From the IMG/VR virus record IMGVR_UViG_3300042505_001397: DNA of 20,000 nucleotides. One strand, 5' to 3'. The number at the start of each line of letters is the position of its first letter. Position 1 is the first letter of the stretch. Below the pieces are notes generated by a model. It was not told the DNA's origin, did no database searches, and saw only the letters and a program-made list of their open reading frames with translations. The stretch is from an uncultured virus (IMG/VR IMGVR_UViG_3300042505_001397). Its lineage: Duplodnaviria; Heunggongvirae; Uroviricota; Caudoviricetes. Shown one piece after another: positions 4,132-19,928 of this stretch. Position numbers and translations under genes: made by a program.

Positions 4132-5019
4132 TTATTTAATTGGGCAAATGCCACTTGCACATTCATCATTTGACTCGTAATCAATGTTTCCGGTCAGTGA
4201 TGAGATGATTTTTGTTTCACTCACAAGGTCATTGAATTGTTCTTCTGTAATCTCTTCATAAGGAGCTTGAGCGAACCCATGATCGGAATGCAATAAGAAT
4301 GACAATGATTTGTGATTATGCTTGTAGTTTTCTTTTAGATATTGTTTGATATCTTCAAGCTCTTCTTTGCGATAATACACTGTACAGCTCACGCTGTTGT
4401 CGGACCAGATTGTTTGAAGCTTCTTAATCATTTTCAACTGATCAATTGCAGTCATGTCTTTGGCCAACACGGTGCCTTCTGGATAACTGAAAGGAAATGT
4501 CACCACCACTGTGTTATAATCTTCAGAACCATCAAAGTTCTTCACGAATTCCACGGGATAGCCATTTTCCTTGCACACACCTACCAAAGGATGTGATGCA
4601 GCAATACGTATTCTTCTGTACATATACTGAGCATATGCAGGATGAATACCTGGAGTCACGCCTGGAAGTAGTGACAGTGTGCCTGATGGTTTAACGGTGG
4701 TCAGCTTAATTGACCGATTCATGTTGTTTTCTTCCGAATATTCTTCATCAAATATTCTCAAGAACTCATAACATTCATCCAGCCATTCAATTTGCTCTTC
4801 AGTTGCTTGAAGAATACCCGTGACACCGATGCCCATTCTCATGTTCTTGTGAACAATGTGCTCTGTTTCTCTGTTGTGAGAAGGTAGAAGCAATGAATGT
4901 TTGTTAATGCGATATAGCAATTGAGCCACATCAAACAACTCTTCTTTCGACTCAATATTTGGTAAAAAGATTTCTGCCAAACAGCATGTTTCAAAATTTA
5001 CCAATGATTGCTCTGCACA
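4132..5019 (-). CDS. nrdJ: Class II (adenosylcobalamin) ribonucleotide reductase, exon 2
   Basis: Begins with CAEQ (thiyl Cys and Glu); TTVKPSGTLSLL; WSDNSVSCTV; QAPYEEIT; C-terminal CASGICP redox pair. Confidence 0.92.
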   Translation of the reverse strand, partial: CAEQSLVNFETCCLAEIFLPNIESKEELFDVAQLLYRINKHSLLLPSHNRETEHIVHKNMRMGIGVTGILQATEEQIEWLDECYEFLRIFDEEYSEENNMNRSIKLTTVKPSGTLSLLPGVTPGIHPAYAQYMYRRIRIAASHPLVGVCKENGYPVEFVKNFDGSEDYNTVVVTFPFSYPEGTVLAKDMTAIDQLKMIKKLQTIWSDNSVSCTVYYRKEELEDIKQYLKENYKHNHKSLSFLLHSDHGFAQAPYEEITEEQFNDLVSETKIISSLTGNIDYESNDECASGICPIK

Positions 5020-5842
5020 CATTTTGTTACTCGATAAATCGAGGGTTGAATATTTCTATCAACCTCTATATATTACTATATAGTTCAGACTATATCATCA
5101 TCCATCTCTGGAGCTTATCGTCCGATTTTATAATAAAAGCTTTCAAATATAAAAGGATGAACAAGTGCTTCAAACTGTTTGTTAAAATGTTTTGGAAGCG
5201 TCAATCCATATTTATTTGTGGCTTGCTTTTCCACATTAAATTGGATGTTTAGTTTTTCTTTTATAGCGCCCGCTAACTGATAATTATCACCATAACTAAA
5301 TCCGTTTGTATGCAATCTATAAAGAGGACTTTCCTCACCAGATGCTAAGATTATCTTTTTTCTGCTACCATCTGCCATTAATATTATGGCCAAGGCTTCT
5401 GCATCTAAAAGTGTTAGCATATGAGGTTCTATTACTTTTTTACCTTCTAAATAAATTCTGTTTCGTATTTTAGTTAATTTAGGGTGCGCTTTAGATTGTA
5501 CACGAATTTGTTGTCGTCTATTACAACCATCATGTATATTCAAAGCTGGTTCCCAAATTTTATAGCCTATTTCAGCTGCTTCTAAAGTAAGAGCTACTTC
5601 ATGTATGTAATCACTATTTTCCTTTATCATTGTGACTGATAGTCGGGAATTGTGGTTTTCACCCCGTTTATCTAAGTATCCATCAAATGTTGAAAAGTAA
5701 TATAATCTCTTACTAATGTCTTTATTATTAATCATAGTCGTTGCACCTCTTTAATTAAAGTTGGCACAGGATTGCCTAATAGGTTTCCCTGTTTTTAGAT
5801 AAGTTTTCTATACTAATTACTCAGTATAGCCCCAATGCATTT
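5020..5842 (-). mobile_element. Group I intron (IA2, td-like) in nrdJ, 823 nt
   Basis: P1 UAUAACCCU/GGGGCUAUA with U-G at the splice site; P2 with GUAA loop; P3 CUUAUC/GAUAAG; P7 ACGACUA/UAGUCU; P8 with GAGA loop; P9 CUAUAUA-GUAA-UAUAUAG; ends ACAAAAUG. Removal restores YNP|CAE in frame (642 aa). Confidence 0.93.
5115..5735 (-). CDS. Intron-encoded LAGLIDADG homing endonuclease (two-motif, I-SceI/LAGLIDADG_2-like)
   Basis: Motifs YFSTFDG and ALAIILMADG; LHTNGFS; C-terminal FEALVHPFIFESFYYKI resembling the I-SceI C-terminus. Confidence 0.82.
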   Translation of the reverse strand: MINNKDISKRLYYFSTFDGYLDKRGENHNSRLSVTMIKENSDYIHEVALTLEAAEIGYKIWEPALNIHDGCNRRQQIRVQSKAHPKLTKIRNRIYLEGKKVIEPHMLTLLDAEALAIILMADGSRKKIILASGEESPLYRLHTNGFSYGDNYQLAGAIKEKLNIQFNVEKQATNKYGLTLPKHFNKQFEALVHPFIFESFYYKIGR

Positions 5843-6883
5843 AGGGTTATAACCTTCTACGTCTGGATCTGGGTACTCAAATTCTCCAAGTCTACCCATT
5901 TTACGTGAAAGATTCAGGTTAATAAGGCCATAGGGTTCAGAACCTCCTTCATAACCTCTCCAGAAATACTCATGCAAGTCATCGATATCATCACATATTA
6001 CACTGTTATTGCTCATTGCACGATATGATGGTATATTTCCCATGCTCCAGTTTTTCGCCAGTAAATACTCAACGTCATCGGGATCACCAATTGCAATTTG
6101 AGCACTTCTACGGACGTTACCTGCAACAATGATTGCGCCAATGATATTCATCATGTCCAATGCATCGACGGGTCTTATTTGTTTACCTCGTTTCTTTTCA
6201 AGTATTTTAGATATTTCCCCAATGCCCCAACATAGGTCTTCTGGCCCACTTGCAACGCCTCCAAAGCCCTTGATAGGTGTGCCTTTACCTCTAATCGCTT
6301 GCGTTGAATATGTGAATGTTCCATTGTCCTCTGTCTCACTCAAAAATGCCGATTTCAAAACTTTGCCCAAGAACTTTACCCAACCTTCTCTTGAGTCAGG
6401 GATGATGAAATCTGCACCACCGTTGTCAATTCTTGTCGGAGCTTTGAACCACTCTTTGACTGCAGGCAATTTCTCCACATTCTTTCTCTGAATGTTGAAA
6501 CCCACTCCACTTCCAAGAGCCAACATGTCCATTGCCCATGTGAATGGTCTCACTGGATTGTCGATGGTCACAAAAGCACAATTTTGCAATGAAGCCAACC
6601 CATACCTGTTCACGGTTGCTGTACCAGCTTGCCACCAATAGCGACCTGCTACAGAGCCTTTTAAACCCAATAAATGTGAAGCCAGTCGATATTCTTCGTC
6701 CTTGGTAAATCCACAGCCAAATTGTTCATCACACGCATTGATCACACGCAGCACTGTGTCAGGAAACTCTTCAGTTTCTTCTGAGACCTCATTGAGCTTT
6801 CTTGCATAAGTTCTTTTGTAAGTCAAGTATCCAACCGTTGACCACGGGGTTTCAATCTTCGGCAATTCTTCTTTTGTCAACAT
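5843..6883 (-). CDS. nrdJ: Class II ribonucleotide reductase (monomeric RTPR-like), exon 1
   Basis: TYKRTYAR, LQNCAF, LGSGVGF, DSREGW, IKGFGGVASGP, VAGNVRRSA, RAMSNNS; ends EGYNP. Confidence 0.92.
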
Positions 6884-8731: not shown

Positions 8732-9202
8732 TTATATTTCTCCTTTGAAATCGCCCCAAGACAGGGCTTTGTTTAAACGTTCTTTATGTCTTTCGGTTAT
8801 ATTTTCACTCACATTCCAAGAAATCTTTTCGATACGTTTATTGTACCATTCCTTCTTGGTGGGTGCTTCCACGTGGCACAGAGACCATGTTTCTGCGTAT
8901 GAAAGTGCTCCTTTGGCTTTGTATTGCTCTATGCAAATGAACTCAAAATCAGTCTTTGGTCTTTCGGCCAACATCTCTGAGATTGAATTACTTGAAGAAC
9001 AATATGTTTTCCAATTTGATTCTTGACCTTTATTCAGTTTGCCCGAACCTTTAAAAAGTTTCTTTCCAAGGTAAAAGCGTTTCATGTAAGGATCCCGAAT
9101 CACATATATGAAACCCGAATAAGCATCTTTGTCCATCGGCTCTTCAAAATGCCAGTGTCCATTTCTGCTCAACGGTTTCACAATCACTTTAGGAATCACC
9201 AT
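8732..9202 (-). CDS. GIY-YIG (Seg-like) nuclease-domain protein, free-standing
   Basis: GFIYVI...FYLGKK, WKTYCSSS, conserved E (YAET) and YN. Confidence 0.72.
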   Translation of the reverse strand: MVIPKVIVKPLSRNGHWHFEEPMDKDAYSGFIYVIRDPYMKRFYLGKKLFKGSGKLNKGQESNWKTYCSSSNSISEMLAERPKTDFEFICIEQYKAKGALSYAETWSLCHVEAPTKKEWYNKRIEKISWNVSENITERHKERLNKALSWGDFKGEI

Positions 9203-15866: not shown

Positions 15867-16546
15867 TTAAGCAAAACAATATTCTGAGTCTAAAATTAAA
15901 TTTAAATCAAGTGTACCTATTTCTACATTACTGATATCTCCTTGTATATCCTCCATAAGACTATTGAGAGGGTCATTTGCATACAATTCCACAAATGTTT
16001 CTCTCACCAATTTAAATAGCTTCGGCATATCTGCCAACAAACATCCAAACGAGTCGTGTATGGTTGTCATCGGGAAATCTGCCCTGTATACAGTCAAAGC
16101 CAGGTGTGCTGCATCCAAGCTGTGAATACAATTTGGACTTGCTCCTTGCGCTTGTTTACCCTTCGATGGTACATGATCTTCAATGAAACACACTGCCAGC
16201 TGAAGTGTATTTTCAAAGTAACCTGAGCTATTTCTCAAACCCAATGGCGGCCCGTATTGTACCCAGATTTTCTTTACTTTACCTTCTGTATAATGCTGTA
16301 CCACAGGAAAATTGGTTATTGGAACAGTCCAAGAAAGAAATCTTTCTTCCGCTTCCGCCTTTTTACCTGCTTCTTCAAATACAGTTAAGAGCCGCATAGG
16401 GCGTTCCAAAGCCGATTTGCAAGTCTCCAGCACCATTCTACCCATATAAGAGCCCCACTTATGTTCCATGAATAGTAGAAGATCTATACCATGTTTTCTT
16501 GCATCATCAATTTGTTGTTGACCAAGCCCATATGCAGTTCCGCCAT
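15867..16546 (-). CDS. T7-type single-subunit RNA polymerase, exon 3
   Basis: The frame is open back to 16546, giving (Y)GGTAYGLGQQ; WTVP..FPVVQ; SPNCIHSLDAAHL; motif C IHDSFG. Confidence 0.93.
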
Positions 16547-17284
16547 CGTTTTGTTCAGTGACAGTCGTTAGTTGTCACCCGTAATGTGTTTTCATTAAAA
16601 TTATTAAACTGCAAATTCACCGTACAGTTCTTTTGTTTTTGCAAGCACACATTCATGCGCTTCTTTTGCGGTATCAAATAACCCAAGATACAGCTTGACA
16701 CCGTTATGACCTAATCGTGCTTGAAACTTACCACTTGGCGTGCTTAAAACTCCTTTATAACCTGTTGTATTATTTGCAGGTTTTTCAGAGTTTATCTGAT
16801 TTTGTGATTGTGTGGCTATACGTAAATTTTCAATTCGATTATTTAAAGGGTTTCTGTCAATGTGGTCAATTTGCTCTTCCTTTTTCAATGCCTCGTTGAA
16901 TAATTCCCATATAATCCTGTGAACCATATAATTTTTTCTTTTATATTCAAATTGCATATAGCCGCTGCTATTTACCCATCCAACCTCAAATTTTCCATTA
17001 TTACTTTCATATCTAAATAATTTACCATCTTTGTAATATAATATATCTTTCCAATTCATTTCCGTTACCTACTTTTCAAACACATTACAGCTATATATTA
17101 CTATATAGACCAGACTATATCATCATGCAATTGCATGGAGTGCGCTTCCAAGACACTTGTCTTGTACTCCCTTTCGGGATAGTCGTTGCACCTTCAAAAA
17201 GATTTCTCTTTAAGCTTGGCTCAGGATTGACCACGGTGGATGGTTGTCCCCTGAATTCACACTCTTTTACTTCCACCTAGATTA
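16547..17284 (-). mobile_element. Group I intron (IA2) number 2 in RNAP, 738 nt
   Basis: P1 CUUCCAU/GUGGAAG; P3 GAGUGUG/CGCACUC; P7, P7.1 CCC-GAAA-GGG, P7.2, P8 and P9 as in T4 td; 13-bp P9.1 encloses the ORF; ends CUGAACAAAACG. Splicing gives MTLP-T|AT-GG. Confidence 0.95.
16604..17059 (-). CDS. Intron-encoded HNH-AP2 homing endonuclease
   Basis: VHRIIW...IDHIDRNPLNNRIENLR...N; AP2 domain NNTTGYKGV...FQARL...YLGLFDTAKEA. Confidence 0.92.
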   Translation of the reverse strand: MNWKDILYYKDGKLFRYESNNGKFEVGWVNSSGYMQFEYKRKNYMVHRIIWELFNEALKKEEQIDHIDRNPLNNRIENLRIATQSQNQINSEKPANNTTGYKGVLSTPSGKFQARLGHNGVKLYLGLFDTAKEAHECVLAKTKELYGEFAV

Positions 17285-18110
17285 ATGGAAGAGTCATTAC
17301 ATTTCTTTTGACAACTTTTCTACGTTGTTTTACGTCCTTAACTCTGCACCAATATATAGGTGCAATTTTTGGTATTATATCTATGTTTTTGTCTCTAAAT
17401 TCACGAATACGCTCTAAAAGTTCTTTTCTTTGTTCACTTTTAAATTCAGCATTGTAAATATCCTTTTTCAATTGTATTAATGTATCTATTACCGTTTCGG
17501 CTTCTCCAATTTCTTTTTTGGTGAATTTTGATTTTTCAATTTCCAGCTTATCCCACACATAATCTGCAACATATTTATATAGATCTCCAGGCAACTCAAG
17601 AGGTACTAAGTTAACGTGCGGTGCAGTTATTTCATCTTTTGTAAGTGCAGATAAATGTTGACTACCGTTGTTGCTTCCATCAACAAAGCACTCTAAACTT
17701 GAAGAATACCCAAAATCATTGAATGGATCTAGATGGAATCCATGCTTTATTTGCCATTCTCTCAATTTTTTAAGCTCATTACATGCCGCAAGGAATTGCC
17801 AAGGTTTATCTGCTTTCATCCAGCCTTGATTCACCTTGGGTTGCATTGCATAATCAAGCAATATGTCTTCATTATCTGTGGACCATAAATACCTATCCTT
17901 GAGTGGAATCTTATCCGTTTTTGCACCGTCTTCCCTTCCAGATGCTCCTGCCCAATTTGAAGCAATACTAACCATAAGCCAAAAGAAACCCTCCTTTCCA
18001 ATCTCCTTTTTGTCTTCTCTCAGCAAAAGACCTTTTGCTAAGTCAGTACCTTGTTCATGAAAATAAGCTGTTGCTGGATATCTTCTACCACGGAAGTCAT
18101 AATAATAACG
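17285..18110 (-). CDS. T7-type RNA polymerase, exon 2
   Basis: YDFRGRRYP, QGTDLAKGLL, ADKPWQFLAAC, motif A DGSNNGSQHLSAL, DLY, motif B RKVVKRNVMTLP. Confidence 0.93.
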
Positions 18111-18898
18111 CATTTGTTCAGAAAATTTCGCTAATATTTTCTCGTTAATTAACATGTGGCCAATTTCTTCCTGTTCGTATACAGTTAATTGTGCCAGGAT
18201 GCACACCGAATAATAATGCAATTTCTTTATTGGAAAAACCTGCAGAGAACATTGCTTTTATATCTCTCACGGACTCTTCATTTAATTTAGAATTTATTGC
18301 CGTTGTACCCTTCACCATCAATCCCAGATCTTTTGCATGTCTGACATTTTCTAGTTGTGTGCACCATTCTAAATTATCAATATTATTATTCTTTTTGTTT
18401 GCATCTAAGTGGTTTACTTTTGGCAAATTAAGCGGATTTGGTATAAAAACTAATGCCACTAATCTGTGAACCATTTCTTTCTTACTTTTACCGTTATAAC
18501 TCAGTGGCACTTGTAAATAACCTAGACCATTGTCATTTTGTTTCAAGATACGTCCGGCTTTCACATATTCCCCACCAAAAGTACTTTTGACAATTCTATC
18601 TTTACTCTTTACATTGCCATAAGAAGAAACTTCATAACACTCATCAAAATCTTTCCAGATTTCCATAATAATCTCCGACTATTTTAAATTAATTAACAGC
18701 TGTATATTACTATACAGTTCAGACTATATCATCTTGGCATCCGCCAAGCTCCGCGCTTCCACTAAGCTATTAGTGTACTCTACTAAGATTAACAAACATC
18801 CGTCTGTTCTTTTCGATAGTCGTTGCACCTTTTGAAGGCTCAGGATTGTCCTAAGGATGTTTCCTGAATTCACGGAGTTTACTACCACCGACATATTA
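18111..18898 (-). mobile_element. Group I intron (IA2) number 1 in RNAP, 788 nt
   Basis: P1 CUACCAU/GUGGUAG; P3 CUCCGUG/CGCGGAG; P7 ACGACUA/UAGUCU; P9; 10-bp P9.1 encloses the ORF; ends CUGAACAAAUG. Splicing gives FYH|RYYYDFRGR in frame. Confidence 0.92.
18145..18666 (-). CDS. Intron-encoded NUMOD4-HNH homing endonuclease (I-HmuI-like) with C-terminal HTH
   Basis: EIWKD...YEVSSYGNVKS (NUMOD4); VHRLVA..FIPNP...VNHLDANKKNN...NLEWCT..EN..HA; SD GGAG. Confidence 0.93.
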   Translation of the reverse strand: MEIWKDFDECYEVSSYGNVKSKDRIVKSTFGGEYVKAGRILKQNDNGLGYLQVPLSYNGKSKKEMVHRLVALVFIPNPLNLPKVNHLDANKKNNNIDNLEWCTQLENVRHAKDLGLMVKGTTAINSKLNEESVRDIKAMFSAGFSNKEIALLFGVHPGTINCIRTGRNWPHVN

Positions 18899-19642: not shown

Positions 19643-19665
19643 AATGAAAAGAAAAAAATAAGATG

Positions 19666-19691
19666 ATAAAAGGGCACCCCGAAGGGTGCCC
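19666..19691 (-). terminator. GC-rich UUCG terminator-like hairpin just upstream of RNAP
   Basis: GGGCACCC-TTCG-GGGTGCCC-TTTTAT, 4 nt after the stop of the 43-aa ORF. Confidence 0.85.
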
Positions 19692-19695
19692 GTAA

Positions 19696-19827
19696 TTATT
19701 TTAAAGCCTTTACTGCGTAAACCAAGAAAAGGAGGGCTCCTCCGACTACCACAAATTTTACTAGAAGCCCTACCGCAATTACGGTCATGGCTAAGTTTCC
19801 TAGGGATATTTGTGATTGTTTTTTCAT
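19696..19827 (-). CDS. 43-aa hydrophobic membrane peptide (below the cutoff)
   Basis: Manual translation: MKKQSQISLGNLAMTVIAVGLLVKFVVVGGALLFLVYAVKALK. SD AAGGT; its own terminator follows. Confidence 0.75.
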   Translation of the reverse strand: MKKQSQISLGNLAMTVIAVGLLVKFVVVGGALLFLVYAVKALK

Positions 19828-19928
19828 GATTTACCTTTTTAGTGATTAGATTGATATATTCATAATTATTCTCGATTGATTTTGTTATGGTTTTAAACCC
19901 CATGGGGTCGAGGTAATTTGCACAAGGC

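What the first reader, a model, noticed from the sequence alone, without database searches (positions are those of the whole stretch)
5114..5755. Homing endonuclease whose SD, start and stop are built from the ribozyme catalytic core
Seen: minus-strand AAAGAGGTG-CAACGACT-ATG. GAGGTG overlaps the 3' strand of P6 and is a strong SD 8 nt from the ATG at 5735, whose A is the last paired base of P7 (GACUA). The stop TAA (5115-5117) lies inside the 3' strand of P3 (GAUAAG, pairing with CUUAUC at 5798-5803). The ORF therefore occupies the whole P7-to-P3 interval, where the two sibling introns have short P7.1/P7.2 hairpins. Known: P7 holds the guanosine-binding site, and phage intron ORFs usually sit in peripheral loops (L6, L8, L9.1). 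Inference: ribosome loading and ribozyme folding are mutually exclusive. That would form a built-in switch between endonuclease synthesis and RNR splicing, and would make the ORF hard to delete cleanly.
Basis: partly seen in the sequence, partly recalled or inferred. Interest (0 to 1): 0.8.

Follow-up and report, generated by a model that had tools for sequence, protein, structure and literature searches.

The report
Endonuclease gene wired into ribozyme core
A self-splicing intron in a phage DNA-precursor gene carries a homing endonuclease gene whose ribosome-binding site, start codon and stop codon are all parts of the RNA enzyme's own core helices, and the same layout recurs in dozens of related phage introns.

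Summary
An 823-nt group I intron (5842..5020, minus strand) splits a class II ribonucleotide reductase gene just before its catalytic cysteine codon. It carries a 206-aa I-SceI-like LAGLIDADG gene (5735..5115).

- **Start region:** GAGGUG lies in the 3' strands of P6a/P6. The A of the AUG is the last pair of P7.
- **Stop:** the UAA lies inside the 3' strand of P3.
- **New here:** UG plus codon 2 pair with the codons just before the stop. This short covarying helix closes the ORF off like a P7.1 hairpin.

The layout is a family trait. All 45 related loci start at this P7 position (43 GACUAUG, one GAUUAUG, one GUG with a compensating P7' change). Only 2 of 126 ORF-less cores of the same intron class have AUG there. 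The stop sits in the same three P3' columns in 20 of 35 distinct loci, and P3 covaries around it.

That ribosome loading and ribozyme folding exclude each other is a sound inference, but it is untested. The principle is already known from T4 td/I-TevI. "Hard to delete cleanly" is not supported. Verdict: a new variant of a known kind, of moderate interest.

The parts
5843..6883 (-). Exon 1 of the class II (RTPR-like) ribonucleotide reductase; ends ...Y-N-P
   Evidence: Pfam RNR-II_ins_dom and RNR_Alpha. Aligns to 1L1L up to N406. The exon frame runs on into the intron to a TAG at 5815-5813.
5020..5842 (-). Group I intron, 823 nt, with a U.G pair at the 5' splice site and a terminal G at 5020
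   Evidence: Two RF00028 half-matches. Exon junction fixed against 1L1L. Covariation in the family.
5830..5846 (-). P1: exon CCCU (5846-5843) pairs with GGGG (5833-5830)
   Evidence: Read and reproduced in the minimum-free-energy fold. Not counted, because relatives splice one base further on.
5808..5829 (-). P2 hairpin (7 bp); holds the stop codon of the exon-1 frame
   Evidence: helix 1: 6 of 7 pairs change on both sides.
5798..5803 (-). P3, 5' strand (CUUAUC)
   Evidence: helix 2: all 6 pairs change on both sides; 98.1% of cells paired.
5767..5791 (-). P4 and P5
   Evidence: helix 3: 100% paired. P5 aligns poorly across the family (51.4%).
5745..5765 (-). P6 (GCC/GGU) and P6a (CUUU/AAAG); the 3' strands hold the Shine-Dalgarno GAGGUG (5749-5744; G5744 lies in J6/7)
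   Evidence: helix 5: all 7 pairs change on both sides; 98.8% paired. Anti-SD duplex energy -7.1 kcal/mol.
5735..5739 (-). P7, 5' strand (GACUA); A5735 is also the A of the start codon
   Evidence: helix 6: last pair is A-U in 34 sequences and G-C in 1. The G-C case is L018, which has a GUG start and a compensating change in P7'.
5115..5735 (-). ORF for a 206-aa monomeric LAGLIDADG homing endonuclease (P0001)
   Evidence: PF03161, 66.1 bits against a cut-off of 25. phrog_11023. Related to PDB 6X1J and I-SceI. 116 homologous clusters.
5730..5734 (-). Closing helix, 5' strand (UG of the AUG plus codon 2)
   Evidence: helices 7-9. The fourth pair is G-C in 24, U-A in 5, A-U in 3 and C-G in 1. Same register in 33 of 35 duplex predictions.
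5123..5127 (-). Closing helix, 3' strand (in the K-I-G codons just before the stop)
5114..5119 (-). P3, 3' strand (GAUAAG); holds the stop codon UAA at 5117-5115
   Evidence: The stop lies in the same three alignment columns in 20 of 35 distinct relatives.
5101..5112 (-). P8 hairpin
   Evidence: helix 10: 98.6% paired; 3 of 4 pairs change on both sides.
5088..5100 (-). J8/7 and the 3' strand of P7 (UAGUC, 5092-5088)
5030..5083 (-). P9 (5083-5066), P9.1 (5064-5044) and a further hairpin (5043-5030)
   Evidence: helices 11 and 12 (98.4% and 90.7% paired). The last hairpin is read only.
4132..5019 (-). Exon 2 of the reductase; begins C-A-E-Q (the catalytic cysteine)
   Evidence: Aligns to 1L1L from C408 to the C-terminus. 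Pfam Ribonuc_red_lgC.

Best explanation
**What it is.** This is a mobile group I intron of the phage IA type. It sits exactly in front of the catalytic cysteine codon of a class II ribonucleotide reductase. It carries an I-SceI-like LAGLIDADG homing endonuclease gene in the loop of a short helix that directly follows P7.

**How the gene is wired into the core.**
- The Shine-Dalgarno sequence is the 3' strand of P6a/P6.
- The A of the AUG is the last base pair of P7, the guanosine-binding helix.
- UG plus codon 2 form the closing helix.
- The stop codon lies in the 3' strand of P3.

**Proposed mechanism (inferred, not shown).**
1. On any one RNA molecule, a 30S subunit can load only while P6, P7 and the closing helix are open. 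The ribozyme is active only when they are closed.
2. The 3' partners of P7, the closing helix and P3 are transcribed about 620 nt after the ribosome-binding site. The nascent transcript therefore offers a short window for ribosome loading.
3. Once the 3' half is made and the last ribosome has terminated in P3', the core folds. Folding hides the ribosome-binding site, and splicing restores the reductase mRNA.
4. The endonuclease is thus made in small, self-limited amounts. It cuts intron-less reductase alleles at the conserved active-site sequence and so spreads the intron.

**Likely origin.** The purine-rich P6 strand is common to the whole intron class. The AUG is specific to ORF-bearing members. 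The ORF therefore probably recruited a ready-made SD-like element by gaining a start codon at the P7/P7.1 junction.
For: **Shown**
- Coordinates and ORF.
- Both intron halves match RF00028. The exon junction falls at N406/C408 of 1L1L.
- Covariation for P3, P6/P6a, P7, P8, P9 and the closing helix in 35 distinct relatives: 92.5% of cells paired against at most 46.8% when slid, and 0 of 500 shuffles reach the observed covariation score.
- The start codon is at the P7 position in 45 of 45 loci. 43 read GACUAUG, one GAUUAUG and one GACUGUG. The GUG case has the compensating U-to-C change in P7'.
- Control: in 126 distinct ORF-less cores of the same class, the base after GACUAU is C in 98, U in 23, A in 3 and G in 2.
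- The stop lies inside P3' in 20 of 35 distinct loci (UAA 15, UGA 3, UAG 2), with matching changes in the 5' strand.
- Codon 2 and the third-last codon covary as Watson-Crick partners: AGU with CUC, AUU with AUC, ACU with GUC.
- The protein is conserved and intact. There are 116 clusters, and both motif aspartates (D18, D122) are invariant.
- The anti-SD duplex energy averages -7.2 kcal/mol in ORF-bearing introns against -4.1 in ORF-less cores.

**From the literature (passages read)**
- The ribosome-binding sites of T4 intron endonucleases are sequestered by RNA structure. Freeing the I-TevI site causes a td splicing defect (PMC2988022; PMC3073962).
Against: - No experiment or expression data bear on the order of events. 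Laying four runs gave no spliced junction. The only RNA-library piece (5331-5576) need not be RNA.
- The P6/P6a hairpin alone is weak (-2.2 kcal/mol). Sequestration of the SD would rest on tertiary folding, which cannot be computed here.
- In one clade (L039, L041-L044) the SD-like element is no stronger than in an ORF-less sibling (-3.9 kcal/mol).
- In 14 of 35 distinct relatives the stop is not in P3'. One lies upstream, one in P8, four just after P7' and eight in P9 or beyond. A stop in P3' is therefore common but not required.
- The overlap could be a passive result of ORF extension ('core creep') with no regulatory role.
- The promoter scan found no more sites than expected by chance (8 against 6.3 expected). 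It covers only sigma-70-type sites, and this phage encodes its own RNA polymerase.
Confidence: 0.6

Rival explanations
1. Passive overlap. The endonuclease gene entered the loop of P7.1, and its ends later crept outwards to the nearest usable start and stop ('core creep'). The arrangement is tolerated but regulates nothing. A little protein is made from whatever fraction of the RNA is unfolded.
For: - Stop positions vary widely among relatives: P3', P8, just after P7', P9 and the 3' splice site. This is what the core-creep hypothesis predicts (hypothesis read in PMC3073962).
- The SD-like purine run in P6 is present in ORF-less introns too.
Against: - The start is fixed at one nucleotide position in 45 of 45 loci spanning 31-100% protein identity.
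- It is kept through a compensated AUG-to-GUG change.
- AUG is nearly absent at this position in ORF-less cores (2 of 126).
- Such constancy suggests selection on the exact placement, although selection for translation alone could also explain it.
Confidence: 0.25
2. Separate transcript. As in T4, the endonuclease is translated mainly from a late transcript that starts inside or just upstream of the intron. That transcript lacks the sequences needed to fold, so core folding is irrelevant to its expression.
For: [quoted passage not shown]
- Some relatives (L006-L008, L010) have TTGACA-N17-TAAACT across P1/P2. This was read by eye and not tested.
Against: - No promoter-like site lies between 5842 and 5736 in the window. 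The scan as a whole gave 8 sites against 6.3 expected.
- The TTGACA motif is not conserved in the family.
- A transcript starting within the 5' part would still contain P6, P7, P7', the closing helix and P3', so the pairing could still form.
Confidence: 0.07
3. Maturase. The LAGLIDADG protein also binds its own intron and stabilises a core that has lost P7.2. The tight ORF-core interlock then reflects co-evolution of the protein and its RNA partner. This does not exclude the best explanation.
For: - LAGLIDADG proteins with maturase activity exist, including one in a bacterial intron (Thermotoga neapolitana; passage in PMC3984707).
- The ORF-bearing introns have one closing helix where the siblings have two hairpins, P7.1 and P7.2.
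Against: - Nothing in the sequence tests RNA binding.
- Both catalytic motifs are intact, so the protein is at least an endonuclease.
- Most phage group I introns self-splice without a protein. This last point is recalled general knowledge, not taken from a call.
Confidence: 0.08

Closest known systems
Phage T4 td intron with I-TevI. Gibb & Edgell 2010 was not read; it is cited through passages in PMC2988022 and PMC3073962.
   Same: - A phage group IA intron in a nucleotide-metabolism gene.
- The endonuclease ORF overlaps P6a/P7.
- The ribosome-binding site is sequestered by RNA structure.
- Ribosomes in the core impair splicing.
   Different: - I-TevI is a GIY-YIG enzyme sitting in the P6 loop, and only its last 20 nt overlap the core.
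- Its ribosome-binding site is hidden by a dedicated hairpin inside the loop and freed by a late promoter.
- Here the hiding structure would be the catalytic core itself (P6, P7 and the closing helix), and no internal promoter was found.
Cyanophage Pf-WMP3 DNA polymerase intron with I-PfoP3I (PMC3428280, passages read)
   Same: A phage IA2 intron whose ORF is predicted to contribute to P6a, P6, P7, P7.1 and P7.2.
   Different: - An HNH nicking enzyme.
- Its ORF starts in P6a and runs through P7. Here the ORF starts at the last base pair of P7 and occupies the P7.1 loop.
Synechococcus lividus LSU rDNA intron with a LAGLIDADG ORF (Table 1 of PMC3073962; PMC1995217, passages read)
   Same: A LAGLIDADG ORF whose two ends overlap core helices (P6/P7/P3/P8/P9.0/P9).
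   Different: - The ORF is inserted in P8.
- The host gene is bacterial rRNA.
- The overlap was noted with a caution about ORF prediction, and no family-wide conservation of the start was reported in the passages I read.
Bacillus thuringiensis nrdF intron with I-BthII (Table 1 of PMC3073962; PMC2248736 seen only as title and start of abstract)
   Same: A group IA intron in a ribonucleotide reductase gene, with the ORF overlapping P6a/P7/P7.1.
   Different: - A GIY-YIG enzyme inserted in P6a.
- Bacterial chromosome, and the small-subunit gene.
The two sibling introns in the same window (RNA polymerase gene)
   Same: The same P6-J6/7-P7 core (AGGUGCAACGACUAU) and the same J8/7-P7'-P9.
   Different: - C instead of G after GACUAU, so there is no AUG.
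- Short P7.1 and P7.2 hairpins.
- Their HNH ORFs begin after the P9 region.
I-SceI family of monomeric LAGLIDADG endonucleases (PDB 1R7M and others; 6X1J)
   Same: Profile match of the family alignment: E 1.1e-15 to 6X1J and about 1e-10 to I-SceI. Pfam LAGLIDADG_2.
   Different: - I-SceI sits in a mitochondrial rRNA intron (recalled).
- This clade is from phages and metagenomes, and it targets reductase genes.

Membership tests
Group I intron (Rfam RF00028) | Match to the covariance model at the gathering score (50 bits) | tested here: not met
   No hit at gathering. The two halves score 45.9 and 38.3 bits with E 1.6e-09 and 3.1e-07. The model cannot bridge the 620-nt ORF between P7 and P3'.
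Group I intron (Rfam RF00028) | Conserved helices P3-P9, including the P3/P7 pseudoknot, supported by covariation | tested here: met
   54 pairs, 92.5% of cells paired, and 41 pairs with changes on both sides. P3 has 6 of 6 covarying pairs, and P7 is 99.4% paired.
Group I intron (Rfam RF00028) | U.G pair at the 5' splice site, terminal G, and in-frame exon ligation | tested here: met
   U5843 pairs with G5833, and G5020 is the last intron base. The joined exons read N-P-C-A-E, matching 1L1L residues 406-410.
Group I intron (Rfam RF00028) | Self-splicing activity | not testable with these tools
   No spliced junction was seen in the four runs laid. This says nothing either way.
Subgroup IA2 (P7.1 and P7.2 joined by G-U-A; definition as quoted in PMC3428280) | Two hairpins, P7.1 and P7.2, between P7 and P3' | tested here: inconclusive
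   The siblings have both, joined by GUA in sibling A. The reductase intron has one closing helix at the P7.1 position, and no P7.2 was identified.
LAGLIDADG homing endonuclease (Pfam PF03161 LAGLIDADG_2) | Profile match above the curated cut-off | tested here: met
   66.1 bits against 25, over residues 18-180. phrog_11023 at E 2.5e-06.
LAGLIDADG homing endonuclease (Pfam PF03161 LAGLIDADG_2) | Two LAGLIDADG motifs, each with a conserved acidic residue (monomeric type) | tested here: met
   F17-D18-G19 and A121-D122-G123 are invariant in 43 aligned homologues.
LAGLIDADG homing endonuclease (Pfam PF03161 LAGLIDADG_2) | Site-specific cleavage of the intron-less allele | not testable with these tools
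   No intron-less allele was found in the runs laid.
Structure-controlled translation of an intron endonuclease (T4 I-TevI type) | SD and start codon base-paired in a conserved RNA structure | tested here: met
   The SD lies in the 3' strands of P6a/P6 (7 of 7 pairs covary). The AUG lies in P7 and the closing helix.
Structure-controlled translation of an intron endonuclease (T4 I-TevI type) | Internal late promoter that yields a transcript with a free ribosome-binding site | tested here: inconclusive
   The sigma-70 scan gave 8 sites against 6.3 expected, none between 5842 and 5736. The phage's own polymerase promoters are unknown.
Structure-controlled translation of an intron endonuclease (T4 I-TevI type) | Translation of the ORF lowers splicing | not testable with these tools
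   This needs in vivo or in vitro assays.

The most novel reading that the evidence does not exclude
The ribozyme core is itself the translational operator, and the ribosome is a folding gate. Each pre-mRNA allows a brief co-transcriptional burst of endonuclease synthesis. Termination of the last ribosome inside P3' then licenses formation of P3, the closing helix and P7. Splicing follows, and the ribosome-binding site is shut permanently. This would be a self-timed, promoter-independent control, conserved in a large family of phage reductase introns. The endonuclease may additionally stand in for the missing P7.2 as a maturase.
Probability: 0.3. Interest if true: 0.7.

Novelty: new variant of a known kind. 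Interest (0 to 1): 0.5.

Why it matters
**For intron biology.** This is the tightest interlock between a homing endonuclease gene and a ribozyme core that I could find.
- The ribosome-binding site, the start and, in most relatives, the stop are all core nucleotides.
- The start is fixed at one base pair of the guanosine-binding helix across a family of at least 116 protein clusters.
- The family offers a natural graded series: same start, but stops in P3', in P8, after P7', in P9 or at the 3' splice site. Such a series could test the 'core creep' hypothesis and the conflict between translation and splicing, without the dedicated hairpins and late promoters of T4.

**For annotation.**
- Rfam finds nothing at its gathering threshold.
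- Gene callers extend 52 of the 116 clusters upstream through the P7 sequence, and start 4 at an internal Met.
- The split reductase fragments in the deposited Pseudomonas phage genomes SPA01 and FBPa8 are left as 'hypothetical protein', or carry only an RNR beta-subunit label.

Tried and rejected
- **Near-identical phage records.** Megablast of 4900-6000 found none. The window's own assembly is not held. The nearest record, G001, is 100% identical over the query.
- **Expression and splicing.** One search for runs, then four runs laid.
  - There were no joints, so there is neither a spliced form nor an intron-less allele.
  - One 246-nt contig from an RNA library covers 5331-5576, but it need not be RNA.
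  - Most holders are lake-water metagenomes.
- **Alternative start at Met36 (MIKENS).** Rejected; see the first-reader verdict.
- **Internal promoter.** No support.
- **Thermodynamic folding.** It reproduces P1, P2, P4-P6 and P7. It cannot model the pseudoknot or tertiary structure, so it does not show how well the SD is hidden.
- **Closing helix by energy alone.** The signal is modest: mean -5.1 against -2.7 kcal/mol for shuffled sequence, and z below -1.5 in 17 of 35. The case for this helix rests on its fixed register and on covariation.
- **Earlier notes of this scan.** Nothing on this genome or this protein.
- **Literature.** Seven full-text searches found no description of an ORF in the P7.1 loop with its start codon in P7, nor of this reductase-intron family.
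  - The library holds only open-licence papers.
  - 'P7' alone cannot be searched because it is under three characters.
  - Absence from print is therefore not established.
  - Gibb & Edgell 2010 itself was not read.
Full report
**1. What is in the window**

All genes in the window run on the minus strand. They form a phage replication module:
- DNA ligase, primase-helicase, a 5'-3' exonuclease and a family A DNA polymerase;
- a T7-type RNA polymerase;
- a B12-dependent (class II) ribonucleotide reductase split into two ORFs, 6883..5813 and 5022..4132.

Between the two reductase ORFs lies ORF 5735..5115. It encodes 206 aa and matches Pfam LAGLIDADG_2 at 66.1 bits against a cut-off of 25.

**2. 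The intron and its borders**

- At its gathering threshold Rfam finds nothing in the window.
- With relaxed thresholds the group I model matches twice, at 5852-5720 (45.9 bits) and at 5196-5066 (38.3 bits). These are the two halves of one ribozyme, separated by the ORF.
- Against the Lactobacillus leichmannii enzyme (PDB 1L1L), exon 1 aligns up to N406 and exon 2 begins at C408, the alignment counterpart of the catalytic cysteine. My exon-1 query stopped two bases short of the junction codon CCT (Pro), which accounts for position 407.
- The intron is therefore 5842..5020, 823 nt. U5843 pairs with G5833 at the 5' splice site, and the intron ends in G5020.
- The exon-1 reading frame stops ten codons into the intron, inside P2.

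**3. Checking the observation**

| Element | Position | Where it lies |
|---|---|---|
| GAGGUG | 5749-5744 | G5749 closes P6a, G5747-U5745 form P6, A5748 is a bulge, G5744 is in J6/7 |
| Spacer | 8 nt | J6/7 and P7 |
| AUG | 5735-5733 | A5735 is the last base of GACUA, which pairs with UAGUC at 5092-5088 |
| UAA | 5117-5115 | inside GAUAAG (5119-5114), which pairs with CUUAUC (5803-5798) |

AUG 5735 is the only possible start. An in-frame UAA lies five codons upstream with no start codon between. The next in-frame AUG (Met36, 'MIKENS') lies beyond the first LAGLIDADG motif, whose residues K9, F17, D18 and G19 are invariant in 43 aligned homologues.

**4. The layout is a family trait**

*Named phages.* Two Pseudomonas phages hold 30-32% identical ORFs. 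In SPA01 the flanking CDSs are annotated as hypothetical proteins. In FBPa8 the upstream fragment is annotated as a reductase beta subunit and the downstream one as hypothetical. In both, the ORF starts at GACUAUG, preceded by GAGGUG or GAGAUG.

*Protein search.* The large protein database gave 116 clusters, all carrying PF03161 except one 148-aa fragment.
- 57 of the gene calls start at the conserved Met.
- 52 are extended upstream and read '..TTM..', which is ACG-ACU-AUG translated in frame.
- 7 are otherwise. Four of these begin at the internal Met. For the one whose DNA I fetched (P0027), the contig (L172) holds the complete in-frame N-terminus from GACTATG, only 31 nt from its end. That gene call is an edge artefact.

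*DNA loci.* I examined 45 loci: 43 from IMG/VR plus the two named phages.
- 43 have an in-frame GACTATG.
- L046 has GATTATG.
- L018 has GACTGTG.
- L004 is the window's own phage, and ten other loci duplicate another locus over the stretch aligned.
- 35 are distinct and complete.
- In a further set of 11 metagenome loci, 9 have the P7 start and 2 are cut off by contig ends. At least two of these are the same contigs as IMG/VR loci.

*Control.* The same collection holds at least 126 distinct ORF-less cores with the same P7 and P7' sequences 40-70 nt apart. An AUG at the end of P7 therefore marks the ORF-bearing introns. It is not a by-product of the core consensus.

*The SD-like run.* By contrast, the purine-rich 3' strand of P6 (for example GGAAGGU) is common to the whole class. 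The mean anti-SD duplex energy is -4.1 kcal/mol in ORF-less cores and -7.2 in the 35 ORF-bearing introns. The ORF seems to have adopted an SD-like element that was already there.

**5. Structure by covariation**

I aligned the 35 distinct introns end to end and counted a hand-drawn structure on the alignment.

| Measure or helix | Result |
|---|---|
| Whole structure | 92.5% of 1883 cells paired; 33-47% when partners are slid; 41 of 54 pairs change on both sides; 0 of 500 shuffles reach the covariation score |
| P3 | 6 of 6 pairs covary |
| P6/P6a | 7 of 7 pairs covary |
| P8 | 3 of 4 pairs covary |
| P9 | 6 of 7 pairs covary |
| P7 | almost invariant |

The one variable pair in P7 is the one that holds the A of the AUG. 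It is A-U in 34 sequences and G-C in L018. L018 has the GUG start and reads CAGUC instead of UAGUC in P7'. Both the base pair and a usable start codon were kept.

**6.

- U5734, G5733, A5732, U5731 and U5730 pair with G5123, C5124, U5125, A5126 and A5127. That is the UG of the AUG plus codon 2, paired with the codons for (K)-I-G just before the stop.
- The helix stands in the same register in 33 of 35 duplex predictions.
- Its fourth pair is G-C in 24 sequences, U-A in 5, A-U in 3 and C-G in 1.
- In codon terms, AGU goes with CUC, AUU with AUC and ACU with GUC. No protein-level reason links residue 2 to residue 204 in this way.
- In L036 the ORF stops earlier, and the 3' strand of the helix lies in non-coding sequence, yet it still pairs.

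The ORF is thus the loop of a helix that abuts P7 directly and ends 3 nt before P3'. This is the position of P7.1 in the siblings, whose P7.1 also begins with the U that follows GACUA. The whole AUG is base-paired in the folded ribozyme.

**7. The stop codon**

Among the 35 distinct introns:
- 20 have the stop in the same three columns of P3' (UAA 15, UGA 3, UAG 2);
- 1 overlaps the edge of P3';
- 1 lies upstream;
- 1 lies in P8 (SPA01);
- 4 lie directly after P7' (UAGUC|UGA or UUGUC|UAG), including FBPa8;
- 8 lie in P9 or beyond.

P3 changes together with the stop. Examples are CUUAUC/GAUAAG, UCUAUC/GAUAGA, GCUACU/GGUAGC and UUUAUC/GAUGAA.

The longer proteins end in '..GDDIV', which is J8/7 and P7' read in frame. 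In L172 the frame runs on to the 3' splice site. This graded series is what the 'core creep' hypothesis predicts (PMC3073962, passages read).

**8. Where the family sits**

I read the flanking codons by eye. I did not test them with a profile, except for the window itself.
- Most members lie at or within one base of the catalytic cysteine codon of an N-x-C-x-E motif. This holds in class II-like (Y-N-P|C) and class I-like (R-N-A|C-T-E, S-N-L-C) reductases.
- L045 lies at the second cysteine motif (C-N-L-G-S).
- L172 lies about 20 codons upstream of an intact G-Y-N-P-C-A-E-Q.

**9. How it probably works**

*Shown:* the anatomy above, an intact and conserved endonuclease gene, and a fixed start.

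*Inferred:*
- An initiating ribosome needs the SD and the AUG single-stranded. It also covers tens of nucleotides around them (general knowledge, not taken from a call). That span would take in P6, J6/7, P7 and the 5' strand of the closing helix.
- An active ribozyme needs these same nucleotides paired.
- The two states therefore exclude each other on one molecule.
- The 3' partners are transcribed about 620 nt later, so the nascent RNA offers a short loading window. The local P6/P6a hairpin is weak, at -2.2 kcal/mol.
- After the last ribosome terminates in P3' the core can fold. Folding hides the ribosome-binding site and allows splicing.

This makes endonuclease synthesis self-limiting without the dedicated hairpin and late promoter used by T4 (PMC2988022). 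[quoted passage not shown] So the principle is known. What differs here is that the catalytic core itself is the sequestering structure, and that the design is fixed across a large family.

I give this reading 0.6. The main rival, passive overlap with no regulatory role, gets 0.25.

**10. What is not supported**

'Hard to delete cleanly' is not supported. Any deletion inside the ORF leaves the closing helix as a hairpin at the P7.1 position, and that is what the ORF-less relatives have. I found no direct evidence on expression or splicing. The four runs laid gave no junctions.

**11. Novelty**

- Overlap of endonuclease ORFs with group I cores, sequestered ribosome-binding sites and translation-splicing conflict are all in print (PMC3073962, PMC3984707, PMC2988022, PMC3428280; passages read).
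- In seven searches I found no description of an ORF in the P7.1 loop with its start codon sharing a base pair with P7, nor of this LAGLIDADG-bearing reductase-intron family.
- The library is limited to open-licence papers, and 'P7' alone cannot be searched.
This fits the view that overlap as such is ordinary.

I class the finding as a new variant of a known kind, with interest 0.5.

Noticed in passing
window 18895-18140 and 17276-16560 (minus strand, approximate): The two sibling group I introns interrupt a T7-type single-subunit RNA polymerase gene (PF00940 in ORFs 18221..17277 and 16469..15867). Each ribozyme part is followed directly by an HNH endonuclease ORF (18666..18145 with NUMOD4 and HNH_3; 17059..16604 with HNH_3). 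These introns therefore probably carry their endonuclease genes in the 3' (P9) region. Rfam did not report either intron even at E up to 0.1. I did not determine their 3' ends.
   Followed up: partly
window 17285-17262 and 18905-18878 (minus strand): Both sibling introns follow nearly the same exon sequence (..CCAUUAAU..) and have the same guide sequence (GGUGG), although they lie about 1.6 kb apart in one gene.
   Followed up: no
L002 (OP875100.2, Pseudomonas phage SPA01) 1520-4130; L003 (ON857932.1, phage FBPa8) 2064-3847: In both deposited genomes the gene around the LAGLIDADG ORF is split by an unannotated group I intron. In SPA01 the flanking fragments are annotated as hypothetical proteins. 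In FBPa8 the upstream fragment is called an RNR beta subunit and the downstream one hypothetical. The SPA01 upstream fragment ends ..E-A-S-N-L-C, which reads like a reductase large-subunit active site.
   Followed up: partly
L172 1-860: A family member sits at a different reductase site, about 20 codons upstream of an intact G-Y-N-P-C-A-E-Q. Its ORF runs from the P7 AUG through the whole 3' half of the ribozyme, to a UGA that appears to span the 3' splice site.
   Followed up: partly
window 5847 (run X10, record 6): A lake-metagenome contig matches exon 1 with 13 differences over 269 bases. At the splice site it continues into the 5' end of a different variant of this intron family, resembling L016. 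Closely related reductase genes thus carry divergent introns of the family at essentially the same site.
   Followed up: no
L006-L008, L010 (upstream parts shown): In these relatives the P1 loop and P2 read TTGACA, a 17-nt spacer, then TAAACT. This is a good sigma-70 promoter look-alike pointing into the intron. It is not conserved in the window or in most of the family.
   Followed up: no
window 8732-9202 (minus strand): A free-standing SegE-like GIY-YIG endonuclease gene lies between the primase-helicase and the exonuclease genes. This 20-kb window therefore holds at least four homing-endonuclease-type genes of three families.
   Followed up: no
window 19657-19888 (plus strand): A weak sub-threshold Rfam match to the MicX sRNA (29.4 bits against a gathering score of 75, E 0.0046). 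It begins with a GC-rich hairpin and is probably chance or a terminator-like element.
   Followed up: no
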